DNA of 64,000 nt. Source: a virus. The position numbers and the translations under genes are program-made. The notes under the pieces were generated by a model that saw nothing but the letters and a program-made list of their open reading frames with translations, did no database searches and was not told the origin of the DNA. Each line of letters starts with the position of its first letter. Positions within the stretch are counted from its first letter, which is position 1. Below are positions 3,199 through 63,183 of the stretch, one piece after another. The stretch lies in the IMG/VR virus record IMGVR_UViG_3300046501_000246, one strand, 5' to 3'.

Positions 3199-3457
3199 TT
3201 CTTAAATTCTCCAAGTCTTGTTCTAATTGTTTTGTTGCTTCGTTCTGTTGTGTCAGTAAGTTTTCTAGAGAAGTCTGAGCCGCTTTAGAATTATCAGCTT
3301 CTAATTTTTTAGATTGGAACGCAGCTTTCGCATTGTCCCTTTCGATACTGACTTGTAGAACTTCATTTTTTAAATGTTGGTTCGCGGCATAGAGCGAACT
3401 GAGCGCTCCAAATGCCAAGAGACCAATGATCAGATATGCGCCAATTTGATTAAACAT
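3122..3457 (-). CDS. i-spanin (Rz-like)
   Basis: N-terminal TM followed by coiled coil; downstream of the endolysin. Confidence 0.8.
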   Translation of the reverse strand: MFNQIGAYLIIGLLAFGALSSLYAANQHLKNEVLQVSIERDNAKAAFQSKKLEADNSKAAQTSLENLLTQQNEATKQLEQDLENLRNEPESDNGAVSPLLQRGISGLRGDD

Positions 3458-4534
3458 TTATTTATCCTCAAACGCTTTTTTATAGTTTGTGTAAGCCTTG
3501 ATGATTTTATCTTGGGCCAGAATGCCTAGGACAGCTAGAACGATAAGGCTCAAGAAGATGGCAACAAGAATTCGCCAGTCCTGAAACCAAGCGAGTCCAC
3601 CCGCGAACGGGATAGATGAGAACCAATAACCGAAGCGGCTGAAGAAACCGGCTTGAATAGCTGGTGGTTGGCCAAGAACTGCACTTGGGTCTTGCCCCTG
3701 TTCCTCGACAACTTCAGCAAGCTTTTGTTTTGTCAATGCTCCAACTTCGCCATCTGGCACGAGGCCATTAGCTTCTTGGAACTGCATCACGACTTCTTGA
3801 GTGTGGCCACCGAAATCACCATCAGCATCAACATCATATCCAGCGGTTTGTAGCGCGCTCTGCACCGCTTCAACATCTGCACCCTTTGTGCCAATATCAA
3901 CAGTTGGATTGCTATAAGAAACAGGTGTGAACTTAGAGCTATTGAGTTTGGCTTGCCACTTGCGATCCGCATTTAAAAGCTTGATATGATAGTTGTTAGC
4001 TTTGTACGCTTTGCCATTATAACCAGCGGCAAAAACTTCCCACTTACCATTTTTAAGAGCTTCAAAAATACCTTTGGCTTGAGCAAATTTCACGATGCCT
4101 TCAAGCTGATTTGCTTCGCTCAATGCAAGCCACTGAACCATGGAAAGCGCGGTTGGGAAACCGAGCATGCCGTGGTTAAAGCCCATGCACTGGCCCATGC
4201 CAAACGAAGTTGACATTGCGGCGATCTCTTCGCCCGCGATAGAGGCGCAAAGATCGATCCTGTCATAAGAAGTTTTAGGATAATTTCTTACCCAATCCTT
4301 ATAAGCAATACCGGCCTTAACGAGCTTGTCTCTTACCACACCCTTGGTGTATTTATAAGCGATATGCGGCTCGTACAGAGCGATTAGGCGGTTCAGGCTG
4401 TCGTAACCCGTTCCGCGTGCTTCTACTTCTGCAACGGCTCTCAGGCGCGATTCTGCGATGTTGTATTTCTTTGCTAGAGCGGCAAAATCAGCAGCGCTAA
4501 TTTTTCTGCCCGTTCCGTAATAAAATCTTGTCAT
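3458..4534 (-). CDS. Endolysin: DUF3380-type N-acetylmuramidase + PG-binding domain + C-terminal TM
   Basis: AVAEVEARG, LYEPH, SFGMGQCMGFNH, FAAGYNG; PG_binding_1-like DGDFGGHT...NGLVPDGEVG; hydrophobic C-terminus. Confidence 0.88.
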   Translation of the reverse strand: MTRFYYGTGRKISAADFAALAKKYNIAESRLRAVAEVEARGTGYDSLNRLIALYEPHIAYKYTKGVVRDKLVKAGIAYKDWVRNYPKTSYDRIDLCASIAGEEIAAMSTSFGMGQCMGFNHGMLGFPTALSMVQWLALSEANQLEGIVKFAQAKGIFEALKNGKWEVFAAGYNGKAYKANNYHIKLLNADRKWQAKLNSSKFTPVSYSNPTVDIGTKGADVEAVQSALQTAGYDVDADGDFGGHTQEVVMQFQEANGLVPDGEVGALTKQKLAEVVEEQGQDPSAVLGQPPAIQAGFFSRFGYWFSSIPFAGGLAWFQDWRILVAIFLSLIVLAVLGILAQDKIIKAYTNYKKAFEDK

Positions 4535-23572: not shown

Positions 23573-24505
23573 TTAGAGAGTTACGTTAGCGTTCGTGATA
23601 CCCCAAACGCGGGCAGCAGCGCGACCGTGCTCGACAACCATACCGACATACCATTCAACACGTGTACGATATACAGGTGCAGTCTGAAGCTGGCCAAGGT
23701 CTTGAACGTCAATAAAGCCGTTCTGGATACCCTTGATCTTGCCGGGACCGATTGAGAGGACGTAGATAGAGCTAGAAGTAGCTGCACCACCGGGACCAGC
23801 TTCGTTGAACTGGATCATACGAGCGCCAGATTCATCGTAGTCGGCAATGAGAACTGGAAGACCGTTGTAGTAAGCAACGCGTGTACCAAATTCGTCAAGT
23901 TCGAACTGAATGTCGCCGCCGATACCTGCACGAACAGCTGTTGTAAGCTTGTTGCGCATTGTCTTTGACATTAGAAGGTGGGTAGGAGCATCAACGCGGT
24001 CAATAGCTTCGTCAAGCGCTTCAAGTGAAAGCGGTGAGTTAGCTGAAGGAGCGGTGAGGTTTGAAGGAACAAGCTGATCACCAGTGATACGCTTGCGGAG
24101 ACCGTCAAATTCTAGTTCTGAGTTAAGTTCAGAGTCACCGTTAATCATCTTGTTCATGATTGAAAGTGAAAGTGCCTTAACCTTCATTGATTCCTGTTCG
24201 GTGCGAACGTCATTACCGCGAGTAGCGATAAGGAACTTATCGACATCAAGATCACCACCAGCGATACGAAGAGCTTCGGTGCGCTGATTGATAATGCCCG
24301 TTGATTCTGTGTAAGCGCTGTTGACGCCACGGAAACCAACACCCGGAAGAGCATGCTCTTCAGAGTAGGTGTATGAACCACCCGGAATGTTTTCGAAAGG
24401 AAGAACGCGAAGAAGGTCGGCGTTCATTGCGAACATTTCAACAATAGCTGAACGCTTTACGTCGCCATCATTAATTTTATTTGCTTCTAGAAGCGTAAGT
24501 GCCAT
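23573..24505 (-). CDS. Major capsid protein (HK97 fold)
   Basis: 310 aa; LPGVGFRGVN, GGDLDVDKF, EFDGLRKR, YRTRVEWY; downstream of scaffold. Confidence 0.92.
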   Translation of the reverse strand: MALTLLEANKINDGDVKRSAIVEMFAMNADLLRVLPFENIPGGSYTYSEEHALPGVGFRGVNSAYTESTGIINQRTEALRIAGGDLDVDKFLIATRGNDVRTEQESMKVKALSLSIMNKMINGDSELNSELEFDGLRKRITGDQLVPSNLTAPSANSPLSLEALDEAIDRVDAPTHLLMSKTMRNKLTTAVRAGIGGDIQFELDEFGTRVAYYNGLPVLIADYDESGARMIQFNEAGPGGAATSSSIYVLSIGPGKIKGIQNGFIDVQDLGQLQTAPVYRTRVEWYVGMVVEHGRAAARVWGITNANVTL

Positions 24506-29461: not shown

Positions 29462-30085
29462 TTAAATTACGCCAGCGCCGCCAGCAGCTTTAGCACGATC
29501 TTCATCACTGAATTCCGAAGCCCACATCAAGCCGCTATCAGCTGAAGCATACAAAGCACTACGGTTTGCTACTGACTTAAATGCTTTGCCGTAATTGCCC
29601 TTAGTCATATTGAGAGTTGAACCGCTCAATACACCTAGACCGCCACTCTGACCGAACGCGTCAAAATCAGCGCCGATAAAGACAACGTCATAATTCTTTG
29701 CCTTGAAATCGTCAATAGACTTTTTGGCATTTTCCATAGTAATTTCGCGGCTCGCATTTTCAAGGCCGTCAGTTACAACAACGATAGAAGCCTTCTTAGG
29801 AGCCTTCAGATAGATGGTCTGAGCCAGAGTGCCAATAGCGTCGAACAAAGGTGTCATCCCGCGTGGCAGAACTTCATTAGCAGCAATCGGAGTCCATTCC
29901 TTGATCTTCACTTCGGAACGAATAACTTTAAAAGGTTCCTGATTGTCAAAAACGGCAACTGTGATATCGCCCTTCTTAACACCATTTTCACTTAGTGCGG
30001 CGGCGTAAGCATTTACCGCGCCAATGGTTTCGGTCCAGTTAGCGGACATAGAACCGGAGCGGTCGATAAGAATATAAATCTTCAA
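29462..30085 (-). CDS. von Willebrand factor A domain protein
   Basis: LIDRSGSM MIDAS, GMTPLFDAIG, VVTDGLENASRE; TTG start outside tRNA-Ser. Confidence 0.85.
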   Translation of the reverse strand: MKIYILIDRSGSMSANWTETIGAVNAYAAALSENGVKKGDITVAVFDNQEPFKVIRSEVKIKEWTPIAANEVLPRGMTPLFDAIGTLAQTIYLKAPKKASIVVVTDGLENASREITMENAKKSIDDFKAKNYDVVFIGADFDAFGQSGGLGVLSGSTLNMTKGNYGKAFKSVANRSALYASADSGLMWASEFSDEDRAKAAGGAGVI

Positions 30086-30105
30086 TTTAGTTCTTTCTGT
30101 GTAAT

Positions 30106-30197
30106 TGGCGGAAGGGGTGGGATTCGAACCCACGGAACCCTTTCGGGTCCTTCGGTTTTCAAGACCGACGCATTCGGCCAGACTCTGCCACCCTTCC
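30106..30197 (-). tRNA. tRNA-Ser(TGA)
   Basis: TCGGT-CTTGAAA-ACCGA, long variable arm, CCA. Confidence 0.95.
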
Positions 30198-30238
30198 ATA
30201 AAAATTAGAGAGTTAAAAACTCTCTAATTCCTTTTTAA

Positions 30239-30530: not shown

Positions 30531-30612
30531 TGGAGCACTCCGCGAGACTCGAACTCGCATTTTCGTTCCAGTTAGCTTAGTCAGCGTTCGTAGCGCTGCG
30601 GCATAGGAGTGC
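30531..30612 (-). tRNA. Atypical D-armless tRNA-Arg(ACG)-like RNA
   Basis: Acceptor GCACTCC/GGAGTGC+TCCA; T-arm GCGAG-TTCGAGT-CTCGC; anticodon arm CAGCG-CTACGAA-CGCTG only 7 nt after the acceptor strand. Confidence 0.75.
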
Positions 30613-30615
30613 AGT

Positions 30616-30990
30616 TTACTCACCAATTCTCTTTGCGTCTCTAAGAAGGGTAAGTGTATCTATTTCTTGTGGTGAAAAATACTCATTAACAAGTTCAATC
30701 ACTACATCTTCATCATAATCCTTACAGCTAAAAATGTCAAGATAAAAATCTCCGTCACAATCGACAAAGTGACCTGTAATATTTGACGTTTCAATCATTT
30801 GGATAAAGGAAATGCCAGCTTTGATCGGATCATGCGTTGCGAAACGTTCGATCCAAATCGGGCCGTATTTGACCATATCAATCTTTTCGACAAGCTCATC
30901 CACGAACTTAGCGATGTGTTCCTTAGACGTTACGGCAGGAATAGAACCGGCTCTGGCGTCGATAACGATATGCTTGCCCCAATAGTTCAT
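30616..30990 (-). CDS. speD: S-adenosylmethionine decarboxylase proenzyme family protein
   Basis: GKHIVID, IETSNITGH autocleavage-site pattern, LDIFSCK. Confidence 0.85.
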   Translation of the reverse strand: MNYWGKHIVIDARAGSIPAVTSKEHIAKFVDELVEKIDMVKYGPIWIERFATHDPIKAGISFIQMIETSNITGHFVDCDGDFYLDIFSCKDYDEDVVIELVNEYFSPQEIDTLTLLRDAKRIGE

Positions 30991-31340
30991 TATAAATCTT
31001 CCTTGCACTCGGCCCAAGAAACTGGTTGGTTAGTGATCCATTTTTGATTAACGGGATCGTATTTCTTTCTAAATCCACCGGGATAAGAAGTTTCAATGCC
31101 GTTCTTATGTCTTAGTTTTAGATAATGAATTGCGTGATCGGTCTTTAATTTCTCTAAACCTTCTGGTGTAATTCTGTTATCATCGTCTACATCATTGATA
31201 TAATATTGACAAAGATAGTCATTGTAATGGATATTGGACCAATCGGTTAGGCCTATCACATCAATTAAATAATCTTCAAATTGCTCATTGGCTCTTTGAT
31301 AATCTTCTAAAATAATGCCAAACTTAAGCGGCTTCGACAT
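30990..31340 (-). CDS. Hypothetical protein
   Basis: ORF abutting speD. Confidence 0.6.
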   Translation of the reverse strand: MSKPLKFGIILEDYQRANEQFEDYLIDVIGLTDWSNIHYNDYLCQYYINDVDDDNRITPEGLEKLKTDHAIHYLKLRHKNGIETSYPGGFRKKYDPVNQKWITNQPVSWAECKEDL

Positions 31341-31621: not shown

Positions 31622-31697
31622 TGGCACGACGTTGCGGAACTCGAACCGCCTTCTTCAGTTTTGGAGACTGAGGTTTTACCTTATAAACTACCGCCGC
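31622..31697 (-). tRNA. tRNA-Trp(CCA)
   Basis: TCAGT-CTCCAAA-ACTGA, G73 CCA; weak acceptor and T stems. Confidence 0.8.
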
Positions 31698-31981: not shown

Positions 31982-32057
31982 TGGTGCAGCTTCTTGGTTC
32001 CGCCCCAAGCTCTCTTATTCTTCAGACAAGCGCTTTCACTAGATTAGCTTAAGCTGC
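31982..32057 (-). tRNA. tRNA-Phe(GAA) with non-canonical T-loop
   Basis: CTTGT-CTGAAGA-ATAAG; T-arm CTTGG-GGCGGAA-CCAAG; CCA. Confidence 0.8.
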
Positions 32058-32930: not shown

Positions 32931-33004
32931 TGGTGGGATTACCCGGAATCGAACCGAGGTAAAAGAGTTTAGAATTCCCTGCTCTGCCATTGAGCTATAA
33001 TCCC
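32931..33004 (-). tRNA. Amber suppressor-type tRNA (anticodon CTA)
   Basis: GGGATTA/TAATCCC acceptor, loop TTCTAAA, canonical T-arm, A73 CCA; weak anticodon stem. Confidence 0.8.
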
Positions 33005-43802: not shown

Positions 43803-44063
43803 TTAAACCGTCAAGACTTTAACAATAACTTCTTGGGCGGGACATCTAATGAAGATTTTATCGGTATTGGCAGTGAGTGAGGAGGCGCTGAAATTGTCGT
43901 CAGCATCGATCTGCACGAAATCCTGCGTGTTGTCGGCAGGCGTGTCAGGGCCAATAAAAAGTTCAAGATCGAACTGCTTATTGGCAAAAAGGAAAACTTC
44001 TGTAGTATTGAAAGCTACAAGAACCCAACTATTCGAAACGGTGTAAGCCTTAGAAGCGGCCAT
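43803..44063 (-). CDS. Small beta-rich protein (paralog of 38227..38493)
   Basis: Own promoter at 44099-44127. Confidence 0.65.
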   Translation of the reverse strand: MAASKAYTVSNSWVLVAFNTTEVFLFANKQFDLELFIGPDTPADNTQDFVQIDADDNFSASSLTANTDKIFIRCPAQEVIVKVLTV

Positions 44064-63093: not shown

Positions 63094-63183
63094 CTACACG
63101 TACCGGTCAGGGTTTCTACCCCTTAGTAACCGTAATTGGAGGCGATAACATCAATGGGGGTTCGAGTCCCTCCGTGTAGGCCA
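63094..63183 (+). tRNA. Atypical D-armless tRNA-Arg(TCT)-like RNA
   Basis: Acceptor CTACACG/CGTGTAG+GCCA; T-arm GGGGG-TTCGAGT-CCCTC; AGGG-TTTCTAC-CCCT right after a short linker. Confidence 0.7.

What the first reader, a model, noticed from the sequence alone, without database searches (positions are those of the whole stretch)
30531..30612. tRNA-Arg(ACG) with no D-arm and a D-loop-like sequence moved behind the anticodon arm
Seen: acceptor(7 bp)-TATGCCG-anticodon arm(CAGCG/CGCTG, ACG)-ACTAAGCTAACTGGAACGAAAAT-T-arm-acceptor-TCCA. The 23-nt insert contains AACTGGAA, like a D-loop with G18G19 and the Arg identity base A20. Stems and CCA are perfect, arguing against decay. No ordinary tRNA-Arg is in the window. 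Inference: a re-wired tRNA topology that rebuilds the elbow from the variable region, perhaps evading host tRNA nucleases.
Basis: partly seen in the sequence, partly recalled or inferred. Interest (0 to 1): 0.85.

Follow-up and report, generated by a model that had tools for sequence, protein, structure and literature searches.

The report
Rewired phage arginine tRNA gene
This 82-base phage gene is very probably a working arginine tRNA in which one D-stem strand lies before the anticodon arm and the other strand plus the D-loop lie after it; about a hundred phage contigs share the layout, gene finders miss it, and I found no paper describing it.

Summary
Window 30531-30612 (minus strand) has a perfect 7-bp acceptor stem, a 5-bp anticodon stem with loop CUACGAA (anticodon ACG), a 5-bp T arm and an encoded CCA. 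It has no D hairpin and carries a 23-nt stretch behind the anticodon arm. ARAGORN misses it, and Rfam's tRNA model scores it 30.1 bits against a cut-off of 29.

It is not decay. Three related phage contigs carry the same gene with compensatory stem changes and unrelated flanks. An anticodon-free pattern scan found 97 such genes in viral contigs, against 5 in 596 Gb of cellular genomes.

All 75 distinct members carry arginine anticodons. The 5' connector pairs with the insert (two pairs, 75/75 paired, 22 and 16 double changes). So a D-like stem exists, but the anticodon arm sits inside it and the D-loop-like AAYUGGAA follows it.

The window holds a second member (UCU, 63094-63183) and no ordinary tRNA-Arg. 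Together the two cover 437 of 443 Arg codons counted. Cultured phages carry members, unannotated or mislabelled.

Charging, the L-shape and any nuclease evasion remain untested. This scan has already noted the family on other DNA.

The parts
30606..30612 (-). Acceptor stem, 5' strand (RNA 1-7, GCACUCC)
   Evidence: Pairs 7/7 with 30535-30541. In the family all 7 pairs show double-sided changes and 98.5% of cells are paired. The U5-A pair becomes G-C in L001.
30604..30605 (-). U8 A9 junction
   Evidence: U and A in 75/75 distinct family members. These columns were not fixed by the search pattern.
30600..30603 (-). 5' strand of the long-range D-like helix (UGCC). Geometrically it takes the place of canonical 22-25
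   Evidence: G-C and C-G pair with 30575-30576, flanked by U.U and C.A. The family columns 13-48 and 14-47 of A3 are paired in 75/75, with 22 and 16 double-sided changes. Same result on A1.
30599..30599 (-). Single G between the D-like helix and the anticodon stem (position-26-like)
   Evidence: Sequence. In A3, 73 of 75 members have two residues in columns 15-17, which lie after the two modelled D-like pairs and before the anticodon stem. Column 15 is the optional third pair or the C.A position, leaving one residue like this G.
30582..30598 (-). Anticodon arm: 5-bp stem CAGCG/CGCUG and loop CUACGAA, with anticodon ACG at 30589-30591
   Evidence: The stem shows G-C to U-A in L001 and G-C to G-U in L003. 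C35 and A37 are 75/75 and U33 is 74/75.
30578..30581 (-). Linker ACUA between the anticodon stem and the 3' strand of the D-like helix
   Evidence: In A3, columns 36-46 hold 4-6 residues in 73 of 75 members; this count includes the optional third-pair residue of column 46. The segment is A-rich at its 3' end.
30574..30577 (-). 3' strand of the D-like helix (AGCU). Geometrically it takes the place of canonical 10-13
   Evidence: Pairs with 30600-30603. Covariation as above.
30566..30573 (-). D-loop-like AACUGGAA (A14 A15 C16 U17 G18 G19 A20 A21 equivalents)
   Evidence: Sequence. GGA is kept in all 21 members found only by the covariance model, which no pattern constrained.
30559..30565 (-). 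Variable-loop-like linker CGAAAAU, ending in A-U before the T stem
   Evidence: The final A and U are each 74/75 in A3. This U fits a Levitt-type partner for the A15 equivalent, which is inference.
30542..30558 (-). T arm: GCGAG / UUCGAGU / CUCGC
   Evidence: C-G becomes G-U and A-U becomes G-C in L001. G53, T54, C56 and A58 are 75/75.
30531..30541 (-). Acceptor 3' strand GGAGUGC, discriminator U (30534), encoded CCA (30531-30533)
   Evidence: Conservation ends exactly at G1 and CCA in the relatives.
63094..63183 (+). Second rewired tRNA-Arg in the window. Anticodon UCU at 63115-63117, 5' strand CCGG (63103-63106), 3' strand CCGU (63130-63133), AAUUGGAG, 14-nt linker, T arm, CCA
   Evidence: Model R1 scores it 45.5 bits, E 2.7e-8. 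Sequence. ARAGORN and Rfam at gathering miss it. The complete relative G003 has a counterpart at 23943-24022.
30616..31017 (-). Upstream gene: S-adenosylmethionine decarboxylase. Its stop codon lies 3 nt before the tRNA
   Evidence: PF02675, E 3.1e-13; phrog_3125. It was the synteny anchor used to find the relatives.

Best explanation
This is a functional phage tRNA-Arg(ACG) with a non-cloverleaf secondary structure.

Structure. After U8-A9 the chain enters a short helix whose partner strand lies behind the anticodon arm. The anticodon arm and this D-like helix therefore form one continuous arm. The strand leaving the helix carries a D-loop-like AACUGGAA, followed by a short linker ending in U, and then a normal T arm. 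In canonical numbering, segment 10-21 (D-stem 5' strand plus D-loop) has changed places with segment 22-43 (D-stem 3' strand plus anticodon arm).

Inferred fold. The joins that change (9 to 22, 43-45 to 10, 21 to 46-48) connect residues that are neighbours in the L-shaped core. The RNA can therefore keep U8-A14, A15-U48, G18/G19 with the T loop, and the stacking of the D stem on the anticodon stem.

Inferred working. The gene is transcribed within the tRNA array. It is cut by RNase P at G1 and trimmed to the encoded CCA. Host ArgRS charges it through C35, G36 and the A20 equivalent. Host TadA deaminates A34 to inosine, and the tRNA then reads CGU, CGC and CGA. The second rewired tRNA-Arg(UCU) in the window reads AGA/AGG.

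Shown versus inferred. Shown: the anatomy, its conservation, the covariation, the restriction to Arg anticodons, the absence of any ordinary tRNA-Arg in the window, and the codon fit. Inferred: the 3D fold, processing, charging and use in translation. Why the layout is kept is unknown. A likely origin is duplication of the 10-43 region followed by loss of one copy of each half.
For: 1. Anatomy. The stems are perfect, the anticodon loop is canonical and CCA is encoded.

2. Close relatives. L001/L002 and L003/L004 carry the gene directly downstream of the same AdoMetDC gene, with unrelated flanks. The stem changes are compensatory: acceptor U-A to G-C, anticodon stem G-C to U-A, T stem A-U to G-C. 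The two linkers are invariant except for one A-to-G change.

3. Family size. A pattern that does not fix the anticodon matched 102 stretches of viral contigs. Together with the loci already held, that gave 107 places, and 97 of them have a 5-bp T stem with at most one unpaired position and a 7-bp acceptor with at most one mismatch. The same pattern in 596 Gb of cellular genomes gave 99 hits, of which only 5 are real.

4. Covariation.
- On 54 distinct sequences, 94.0% of cells are paired and the covariation score is 0.819, against 0.227 when shuffled and at most 0.13 when slid.
- On 75 sequences aligned by the model, the D-like pairs are CG53/GC12/AU7/UA3 and CG59/GC10/UA4/AU2, with no unpaired cell.

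5. Arg specificity.
- Anticodons among the 75 are ACG 38, UCU 25, UCG 9, CCU 2 and CCG 1. C35 is 75/75.
- An anticodon-agnostic descriptor search of about 1.3 Mb of phage tRNA-rich DNA found the layout only with Arg anticodons. The 11 other hits were ordinary cloverleaf tRNAs that had been misparsed.

6. Tertiary-contact residues not fixed by the pattern are invariant: U8 and A9 in 75/75, A58 in 75/75, C61 in 74/75. GGA is present in all 21 members found only by the model.

7. Role in the tRNA set.
- The window has 21 ordinary tRNAs and none for Arg.
- The complete 185-kb relative G003 has 15 ARAGORN tRNAs, none for Arg, plus one rewired Arg(UCU).
- Five loci with 19-26 tRNAs hold no canonical Arg gene.

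8. Codon fit. The counts are AGA 145, CGT 126, CGC 100, AGG 36, CGA 30 and CGG 6. ICG plus UCU therefore read 437 of 443 Arg codons.
Against: - There are no expression, processing or aminoacylation data.
- The L-shape is inferred from known tRNA tertiary contacts, not modelled.
- In this window's clade the D-like helix has only two Watson-Crick pairs, flanked by U.U and C.A. The minimum-free-energy fold does not predict it, and the fold z-score is only -1.57.
- The discriminator is U here and varies across the family (U 30, G 27, A 18).
- Most family members were collected with a pattern that fixes the D-loop-like motif and part of the T arm. Conservation of those columns is therefore partly by construction.
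- Model R1 was built from an alignment that includes this gene, so its 84.7 bits are not independent.
- Some phages also carry a canonical tRNA-Arg nearby, in a few cases with the same anticodon. The rewired form is therefore not always needed to supply Arg decoding.
Confidence: 0.85

Rival explanations
1. A tRNA-like RNA that is not used in translation. For example, it could be a decoy or sponge for ArgRS, for a tRNA-modifying enzyme or for a host tRNA-cleaving defence, or it could be a processing or regulatory element of the tRNA array.
For: The architecture is non-canonical. Standard tRNA finders reject it. Some phages carry canonical tRNA-Arg genes next to it, sometimes with the same anticodon. 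No charging data exist.
Against: - The anticodon loops are fully canonical, and only Arg anticodons occur, across five isoacceptor types. A decoy would not need to track the codon table.
- The phage's Arg codon usage matches the two anticodons supplied.
- The complete relative G003, and several arrays of 19-26 tRNAs, have no other Arg tRNA.
- The 7/5 acceptor/T branch and the encoded CCA are kept.
Confidence: 0.08
2. A truly D-armless, flexible tRNA of the mitochondrial kind. In this window's clade the two possible pairs between connector and insert do not form, and the insert is just a long floppy variable region.
For: Only two Watson-Crick pairs are possible here (G-C and C-G), flanked by U.U and C.A. 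RNAfold does not predict the helix.
Against: - The same two columns are paired in 75/75 family members through many double-sided changes.
- The connector and the insert are the most conserved parts among the close relatives, which is not what a floppy spacer would show.
- The T loop and the GG motif needed for an elbow are intact, unlike in D-armless mitochondrial tRNAs.
Confidence: 0.05
3. A decayed or rearranged tRNA pseudogene, or an assembly artefact that scrambled the order of a normal tRNA-Arg.
For: The layout is what a local rearrangement of a normal tRNA-Arg gene would give. Rfam's score is marginal.
Against: - The identical order occurs in independent metagenome assemblies and in finished genomes of cultured phages: Mildred21, Cp1R7A-A1, RHph_I1_18, XacN1 and CM1.
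- The stems stay perfect through compensatory changes while the flanks diverge.
- Covariation is strong.
Confidence: 0.02

Closest known systems
Canonical class I bacterial and phage tRNA-Arg (Rfam RF00005; E. coli argQ-type tRNA-Arg with anticodon ACG/ICG)
   Same: 7-bp acceptor, 5-bp T arm with a T-loop of the usual sequence, and a 5-bp anticodon stem. The anticodon loop CUACGAA is identical to that of E. coli tRNA-Arg(ICG), from my own knowledge. C35 is present, a D-loop-type motif carries an A right after GG, and CCA is encoded.
   Different: There is no D hairpin between positions 9 and 26. The D-like helix is formed across the anticodon arm. The D-loop-like segment lies 3' of that arm. 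The result is a three-way junction instead of the four-way cloverleaf. ARAGORN misses it, and RF00005 scores it 30.1 bits against 47-75 for most neighbouring tRNAs.
D-armless mitochondrial tRNAs (mammalian mt-tRNA-Ser(AGY), nematode mt-tRNAs; reviewed in PMC7609411)
   Same: No local D hairpin, and a short connector between the acceptor and anticodon stems.
   Different: The mitochondrial forms have lost the D-loop/T-loop elbow contacts and are shorter and more flexible. This RNA is longer (79 nt to the discriminator). It keeps a canonical T loop and a GG-A motif, and it rebuilds a D-like helix by long-range pairing.
Circularly permuted and split tRNA genes (Cyanidioschyzon merolae, Nanoarchaeum; own knowledge)
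   Same: The order of tRNA segments in the gene differs from the cloverleaf order.
   Different: Those are gene-level permutations, and processing restores a normal cloverleaf RNA. Here the termini are normal (G1 ... CCA) and the swap is internal, so the mature RNA itself must be non-cloverleaf.
Class II tRNAs (Leu, Ser, bacterial Tyr) and allo-tRNAs with 8/4 or 9/3 branches (PMC5389517)
   Same: Extra nucleotides lie between the anticodon and T arms. Allo-tRNAs are non-standard tRNAs found in phage and bacterial metagenomes.
   Different: The long variable arm of class II tRNAs is a self-contained hairpin, and those tRNAs still have a D arm. Allo-tRNAs change the acceptor/T split. Here the 7/5 split is standard and the extra segment pairs with the 5' connector. 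Neither the paper nor the review describes this layout.

Membership tests
Canonical cloverleaf tRNA (Rfam RF00005) | 7-bp acceptor stem, 5-bp T stem with a 7-nt T loop (T54 Psi55 C56 ... A58), discriminator and CCA end | tested here: met
   All pairs are Watson-Crick, the T loop is UUCGAGU and CCA is encoded.
Canonical cloverleaf tRNA (Rfam RF00005) | 5-bp anticodon stem and 7-nt loop with U33 and a purine at 37 | tested here: met
   CAGCG / CUACGAA / CGCUG. In the family, U33 is 74/75 and A37 is 75/75.
Canonical cloverleaf tRNA (Rfam RF00005) | D-arm hairpin between positions 9 and 26 | tested here: not met
   Only 7 nt separate the acceptor and anticodon stems. cmscan deletes the D arm, reducing 15 model positions to 4.
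Canonical cloverleaf tRNA (Rfam RF00005) | Score at or above the curated gathering threshold; found by standard finders | tested here: inconclusive
   30.1 bits against 29 in a 351-nt search. It is not reported in the whole-window or 9.5-kb searches. ARAGORN misses it and all 50 family loci tested. tRNAscan-SE was not available.
tRNA-Arg identity (bacterial ArgRS determinants: C35, G36 or U36, A20; own knowledge of the E. coli identity studies) | C35 and G36/U36 in the anticodon | tested here: met
   The anticodon is ACG. C35 is 75/75, and position 36 is G in 48 and U in 27.
tRNA-Arg identity (bacterial ArgRS determinants: C35, G36 or U36, A20; own knowledge of the E. coli identity studies) | A20 in the D loop, presented to ArgRS | tested here: inconclusive
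   An A directly follows GG in 74/75 members, including all 21 found only by the model. Whether it occupies the spatial place of A20 cannot be tested with these tools.
tRNA-Arg identity (bacterial ArgRS determinants: C35, G36 or U36, A20; own knowledge of the E. coli identity studies) | Aminoacylation with arginine | not testable with these tools
   This needs an ArgRS assay or charged-tRNA sequencing.
Rewired (segment-swapped) phage tRNA-Arg family, defined here by model R1 | Long-range D-like helix enclosing the anticodon arm, supported by covariation | tested here: met
   In the window: G-C and C-G, flanked by U.U and C.A. In the family the two columns are paired 75/75, with 22 and 16 double-sided changes.
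Rewired (segment-swapped) phage tRNA-Arg family, defined here by model R1 | U-A-A ... G-G-A motif directly 3' of the helix, then a linker ending A-U before the T stem | tested here: met
   The window has U AACUGGAA CGAAAAU.
Rewired (segment-swapped) phage tRNA-Arg family, defined here by model R1 | Arg anticodon | tested here: met
   The window's anticodon is ACG. The family has ACG 38, UCU 25, UCG 9, CCU 2 and CCG 1.
D-armless mitochondrial-type tRNA | The D arm is replaced by a short unpaired connector, and the D-loop/T-loop elbow contacts are lost | tested here: not met
   The connector pairs with the insert. The GG motif and a canonical T loop are present.
Class II tRNA (long variable arm) | The extra region forms its own stem-loop, and a normal D arm is present | tested here: not met
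   The 23-nt stretch has no internal hairpin, and there is no D hairpin.
Circularly permuted tRNA gene | The 3' half is encoded upstream of the 5' half, so the acceptor ends are internal to the gene | tested here: not met
   The acceptor strands are at the two ends of the gene, with CCA at the 3' end.

The most novel reading that the evidence does not exclude
The swap is adaptive rather than a frozen accident. Moving the D-stem 5' strand and the D-loop behind the anticodon arm would keep the L-shape and the ArgRS determinants, but it changes the backbone path through the tRNA core. Phage Arg tRNAs of this kind could then escape a host factor that reads the D arm or core of tRNA-Arg, such as an antiviral tRNase or a modification or quality-control enzyme. 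They would still be charged and used by the ribosome. If so, this is a second natural solution to the tRNA fold, maintained by an arms race.
Probability: 0.2. Interest if true: 0.95.

Novelty: new variant of a known kind. Interest (0 to 1): 0.85.

Why it matters
Outside mitochondria, every elongator tRNA described so far follows the cloverleaf order. A conserved family that is very probably functional and whose core segments are strung in a different order would have several consequences:
- It would show that the L-shape, not the cloverleaf, is what translation requires.
- It would give a natural test case for how RNase P, ArgRS, TadA, EF-Tu and the ribosome read tRNA shape.
- It would offer a new scaffold for tRNA engineering.

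There is also a practical point. Standard finders miss these genes: ARAGORN found none in 50 of 50 loci. At least one GenBank record labels one as tRNA-Phe. Phage tRNA inventories therefore undercount arginine tRNAs. Here a phage that seemed to lack any tRNA-Arg in fact supplies two, which cover 98.6% of its Arg codons.

Tried and rejected
- blastn of the 351-nt region against 50,697 phage records found no match. The close relatives exist only in metagenomic viral contigs.
- The first strict pattern in viral contigs gave 0 hits.
- The pattern had a gap one base too long for the window's own clade, but by luck it found the wider family.
- The pattern had two wrong gap lengths and found nothing, so that scan was wasted.
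- The minimum-free-energy fold of the 82-mer gives the acceptor and anticodon stems but not the D-like helix or the T arm, with z = -1.57. It is therefore uninformative for the core.
- Hits of the T-arm half in hundreds of T5-like phages led to an unannotated tRNA-like remnant. In Escherichia phage EscoHU1 it has a mismatched acceptor and no Arg anticodon arm, and it scores 31 bits. It is not a member.
- Rhizobium phage AF3, the closest cultured relative by a tail protein, has no member.
- Relatives L005 to L008 lack the gene at the syntenic place.
- The Rhodobacteraceae lead: model R1 found nothing in the other genomes drawn from the family (121 genomes searched, 1 match) or from the genus (41 searched, 1 match) of the one carrier. 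Only part of the candidates was scored, so this means 'not found in those searched'.
- The 11 non-Arg hits of the descriptor search were ordinary cloverleaf tRNAs that had been misparsed.
- Eight literature searches and two papers read found no description of the layout.

Full report
**1. What is at the coordinates**

On the minus strand, window 30612 to 30531 reads as follows:
- a 7-bp acceptor stem
- the connector UAUGCCG
- a 5-bp stem closing the loop CUACGAA (U33, anticodon ACG, A37)
- 23 nt that contain AACUGGAA
- a 5-bp T stem with loop UUCGAGU
- the acceptor 3' strand, discriminator U and CCA

All 17 stem pairs are Watson-Crick. ARAGORN reports 20 tRNAs in the window but not this one, and none of them is for Arg. 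Rfam at gathering thresholds also lists 20 tRNAs without it. In a 351-nt search the tRNA model reaches 30.1 bits against a cut-off of 29. It does so by deleting the D arm and inserting 20 nt in the variable region.

**2. Setting**

The window is phage DNA. It encodes a tape-measure protein, a tail tube, a J-like tip protein and a portal-type domain. Its large tail protein is about 45% identical to proteins of Rhizobium and Stenotrophomonas phages. The element lies in a tRNA array on the same strand as 17 other tRNAs. It starts 3 nt after the stop codon of an S-adenosylmethionine decarboxylase gene. A sigma-70-like site (11 of 12 matches) lies about 100 nt upstream, but that is only a consensus match.

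**3. Close relatives**

I searched viral contigs with the decarboxylase protein and obtained eight loci. Four of them represent two distinct sequences, and both carry the same 82-nt gene directly downstream.
- The flanks are unrelated. Similarity begins at G1 and ends at CCA.
- The differences inside the stems are compensatory: acceptor U-A to G-C, anticodon stem G-C to U-A or G-U, and T stem C-G to G-U and A-U to G-C.
- The 7-nt connector is unchanged, and the 23-nt stretch has a single change.

Unpaired parts that are more conserved than the stems point to selected tertiary structure rather than decay.

**4. A large family**

I wrote a pattern covering only the D-loop-like motif, the linker and the start of the T arm. 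It does not fix the anticodon or the 5' half.
- It matched 102 stretches of viral contigs. Together with the loci already held, that made 107 places, and 97 of them have a T stem with at most one unpaired position and an acceptor stem with at most one mismatch.
- In 596 Gb of bacterial and archaeal genomes it matched 99 stretches, of which 93 are chance and only 5 are real.

The family is therefore overwhelmingly viral. A covariance model (R1) then found further members that do not fit the pattern. These included second and third copies in the same contigs.

**5. The D stem is not missing; it is re-threaded**

Across the family the nucleotides after U8-A9 pair with the nucleotides just before the U-A-A...G-G-A motif.
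- On 54 distinct sequences the three inner pairs have no unpaired cell. They switch among C-G, G-C, A-U and U-A.
- On 75 distinct sequences aligned by the model, the two modelled pairs are paired in 75 of 75, with 22 and 16 double-sided changes.
- For the whole structure the covariation score is 0.870, against 0.228 for shuffles and at most 0.15 for slid partners.
- A third pair is present in 28 of the 32 members that have the extra residue. The rest mostly show C opposite A.
- The outer position is U opposite U in most members and A-U in 16.

In this window the helix is U.U, G-C, C-G, C.A. The secondary structure is thus a three-way junction of the acceptor, one composite arm (D-like helix, internal loop, anticodon stem-loop) and the T arm.

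**6. Why the L-shape can be kept (inference)**

This step rests on established knowledge of tRNA tertiary structure. In a normal tRNA the strand 22-25 runs on through 26 into the anticodon stem, and strand 10-13 runs on into the D loop. Here the 5' strand runs into the anticodon stem, so it takes the place of 22-25. The 3' strand runs into A-A-Y-U-G-G-A-A, so it takes the place of 10-13, followed by 14-21.

The new order is 1-9, 22-43, linker, 10-21, a short linker ending in U, then 49-76. The three changed joins connect residues that are neighbours in the folded core:
- 8/9 lie next to 21/22, through the U8-A14-A21 contact.
- 44/45 lie next to 10, through the 45-10-25 triple.
- 21 lies next to 46-48.

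Consistent with this, several residues that no pattern fixed are nearly invariant: U8 and A9 (75/75), A58 (75/75) and C61 (74/75). The 21 members found only by the model all keep G-G-A and nearly all keep the final A-U. Conservation of the motif itself in the other members is partly by construction, because the pattern demanded it. No 3D modelling tool was available.

**7. It is an arginine tRNA**

- All 75 distinct members have Arg anticodons: ACG 38, UCU 25, UCG 9, CCU 2 and CCG 1. C35 is invariant.
- A descriptor search ignored both the anticodon and the D-loop sequence. It covered about 1.3 Mb of phage DNA rich in tRNAs and found the layout only with Arg anticodons. The 11 exceptions were ordinary cloverleaf tRNAs that had been misparsed.
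- C35, G36/U36 and A20 are the known bacterial ArgRS determinants (own knowledge). An A directly after G-G is present in 74 of 75 members.

**8. Role in this phage**

Model R1 found a second member in the window at 63094-63183 on the plus strand. Its anticodon is UCU, and it lies just upstream of a tRNA-Met. No ordinary tRNA-Arg is present among the 21 conventional tRNAs.

In 28 long open reading frames the Arg codons are AGA 145, CGT 126, CGC 100, AGG 36, CGA 30 and CGG 6. An inosine-modified ACG tRNA plus a UCU tRNA would read 437 of these 443 codons.

The complete 185-kb relative with terminal repeats has 15 ARAGORN tRNAs, none for Arg, and one rewired Arg(UCU). Among 50 family loci ARAGORN called none of the rewired genes. 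Five loci with 19-26 tRNAs hold no canonical Arg gene. Eighteen loci do have canonical Arg genes, mostly with other anticodons.

**9. Cultured phages and cellular copies**

Members exist in finished genomes of isolated phages:
- Mesorhizobium phage Cp1R7A-A1 (unannotated)
- Xanthomonas phage XacN1 (unannotated)
- Rhizobium phage RHph_I1_18, which has two copies; the copy whose annotation I looked at lies partly under an annotated protein start
- Stenotrophomonas phage CM1, whose record has no annotation

Streptomyces phage Mildred21 also has one. Its gene is annotated tRNA-Phe(gaa), although the 7-nt loop places UCG as the anticodon.

Three Rhodobacterales assemblies (two labelled Rhodobacteraceae) carry a rewired Arg(UCG) directly next to a canonical Arg(GCG). 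In the one locus whose genes I examined, the pair lies among housekeeping genes, between uvrC and a CDP-alcohol phosphatidyltransferase gene. The model found nothing in the other genomes drawn from that family (121 searched) or genus (41 searched). The search had limited sensitivity, so cellular copies look sporadic.

**10. Comparison with what is known**

Eight literature searches turned up no description of this layout. I also read the 2020 review of non-canonical tRNAs and the allo-tRNA paper, and neither describes it. The library holds only open-access papers, so this is not proof of absence.
- D-armless mitochondrial tRNAs lack the elbow contacts that this RNA keeps.
- Permuted tRNA genes are restored to cloverleaf RNAs by processing.
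- Class II and allo-tRNAs keep a D hairpin.

The gene works like a tRNA-Arg but fails one defining feature of the cloverleaf model, the local D arm. I therefore file it as a new variant of a known kind.

Earlier agents of this scan reported the same family on other genomes and reached the same reading. I formed my reading before I saw those notes, and I tested each point here myself.

**11. Verdict**

The re-wiring idea is supported and sharpened: it is a split D stem that encloses the anticodon arm, not a lost D arm. Function as a charged, decoding tRNA-Arg is very likely (0.85) but rests on comparative evidence only. The reason for the layout, including the nuclease-evasion idea, remains open.

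Noticed in passing
window 63094-63183 (+): A second rewired tRNA-Arg, with anticodon UCU and an unusually long 14-nt linker before the T arm, lies 10 nt upstream of tRNA-Met. ARAGORN and Rfam at gathering both miss it.
   Followed up: yes
window 31985-32057 (-): Rfam scores a tRNA here at 40.7 bits that ARAGORN misses. By my reading it is tRNA-Phe(GAA), syntenic with the tRNA-Phe of L001, but its T loop reads GGCGGAA instead of the usual TTC-type loop.
   Followed up: partly
window 32931-33004 (-); L001 1485-1558; L004 442-517: There is a tRNA with the amber-reading anticodon CUA, which ARAGORN labels 'Pyl', in the window and in L001. L004 holds one with the opal-reading anticodon UCA ('SeC'). 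These are possible suppressor tRNAs. I did not check whether the phage recodes stop codons.
   Followed up: no
window 31622-31697 (-): tRNA-Trp(CCA) scores only 29.4 bits with Rfam, just above the cut-off. It may be another structurally deviant tRNA of the array.
   Followed up: no
L113 6990-7146; L122 1344-1499; L195 (about 127-283): Three Rhodobacterales assemblies (two labelled Rhodobacteraceae) carry a rewired tRNA-Arg(UCG) in tandem with a canonical tRNA-Arg(GCG). In L113, the one locus whose genes I examined, the pair lies among housekeeping genes (uvrC, pgsA-like, moaE) and not in a prophage. The model found no copy in the other genomes searched in that family (121 searched) or genus (41 searched).
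   Followed up: partly
L226 304-379 (Streptomyces phage Mildred21, MF155946 91367-91442): GenBank annotates this family member as tRNA-Phe(gaa). With the 5-bp stem and 7-nt loop the anticodon is UCG (Arg), so the label is probably wrong. Sister phages (Braelyn, Persimmon, WhereRU, Navo) show only an HNH endonuclease CDS under the match and no tRNA annotation.
   Followed up: partly
L225 370-441 (Escherichia phage EscoHU1, NC_133119 about 43874-43945): Hundreds of T5-like phages share an unannotated tRNA-like stretch. It has a good T arm and an AACUGG motif, but the acceptor is mismatched and there is no Arg anticodon arm. It is not a member of the family, and its nature is unknown.
   Followed up: partly
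L005 about 3403-3490: In the 185-kb relative, the slot after the AdoMetDC gene holds a long Ser-like tRNA (loop with UGA) that ARAGORN does not call.
   Followed up: no
window 29462-30199 (-): The longest ORF for the phrog_7371 protein starts inside tRNA-Ser(UGA) at 30106-30197. The family match begins at residue 34, so the true start is probably downstream of the tRNA.
   Followed up: no
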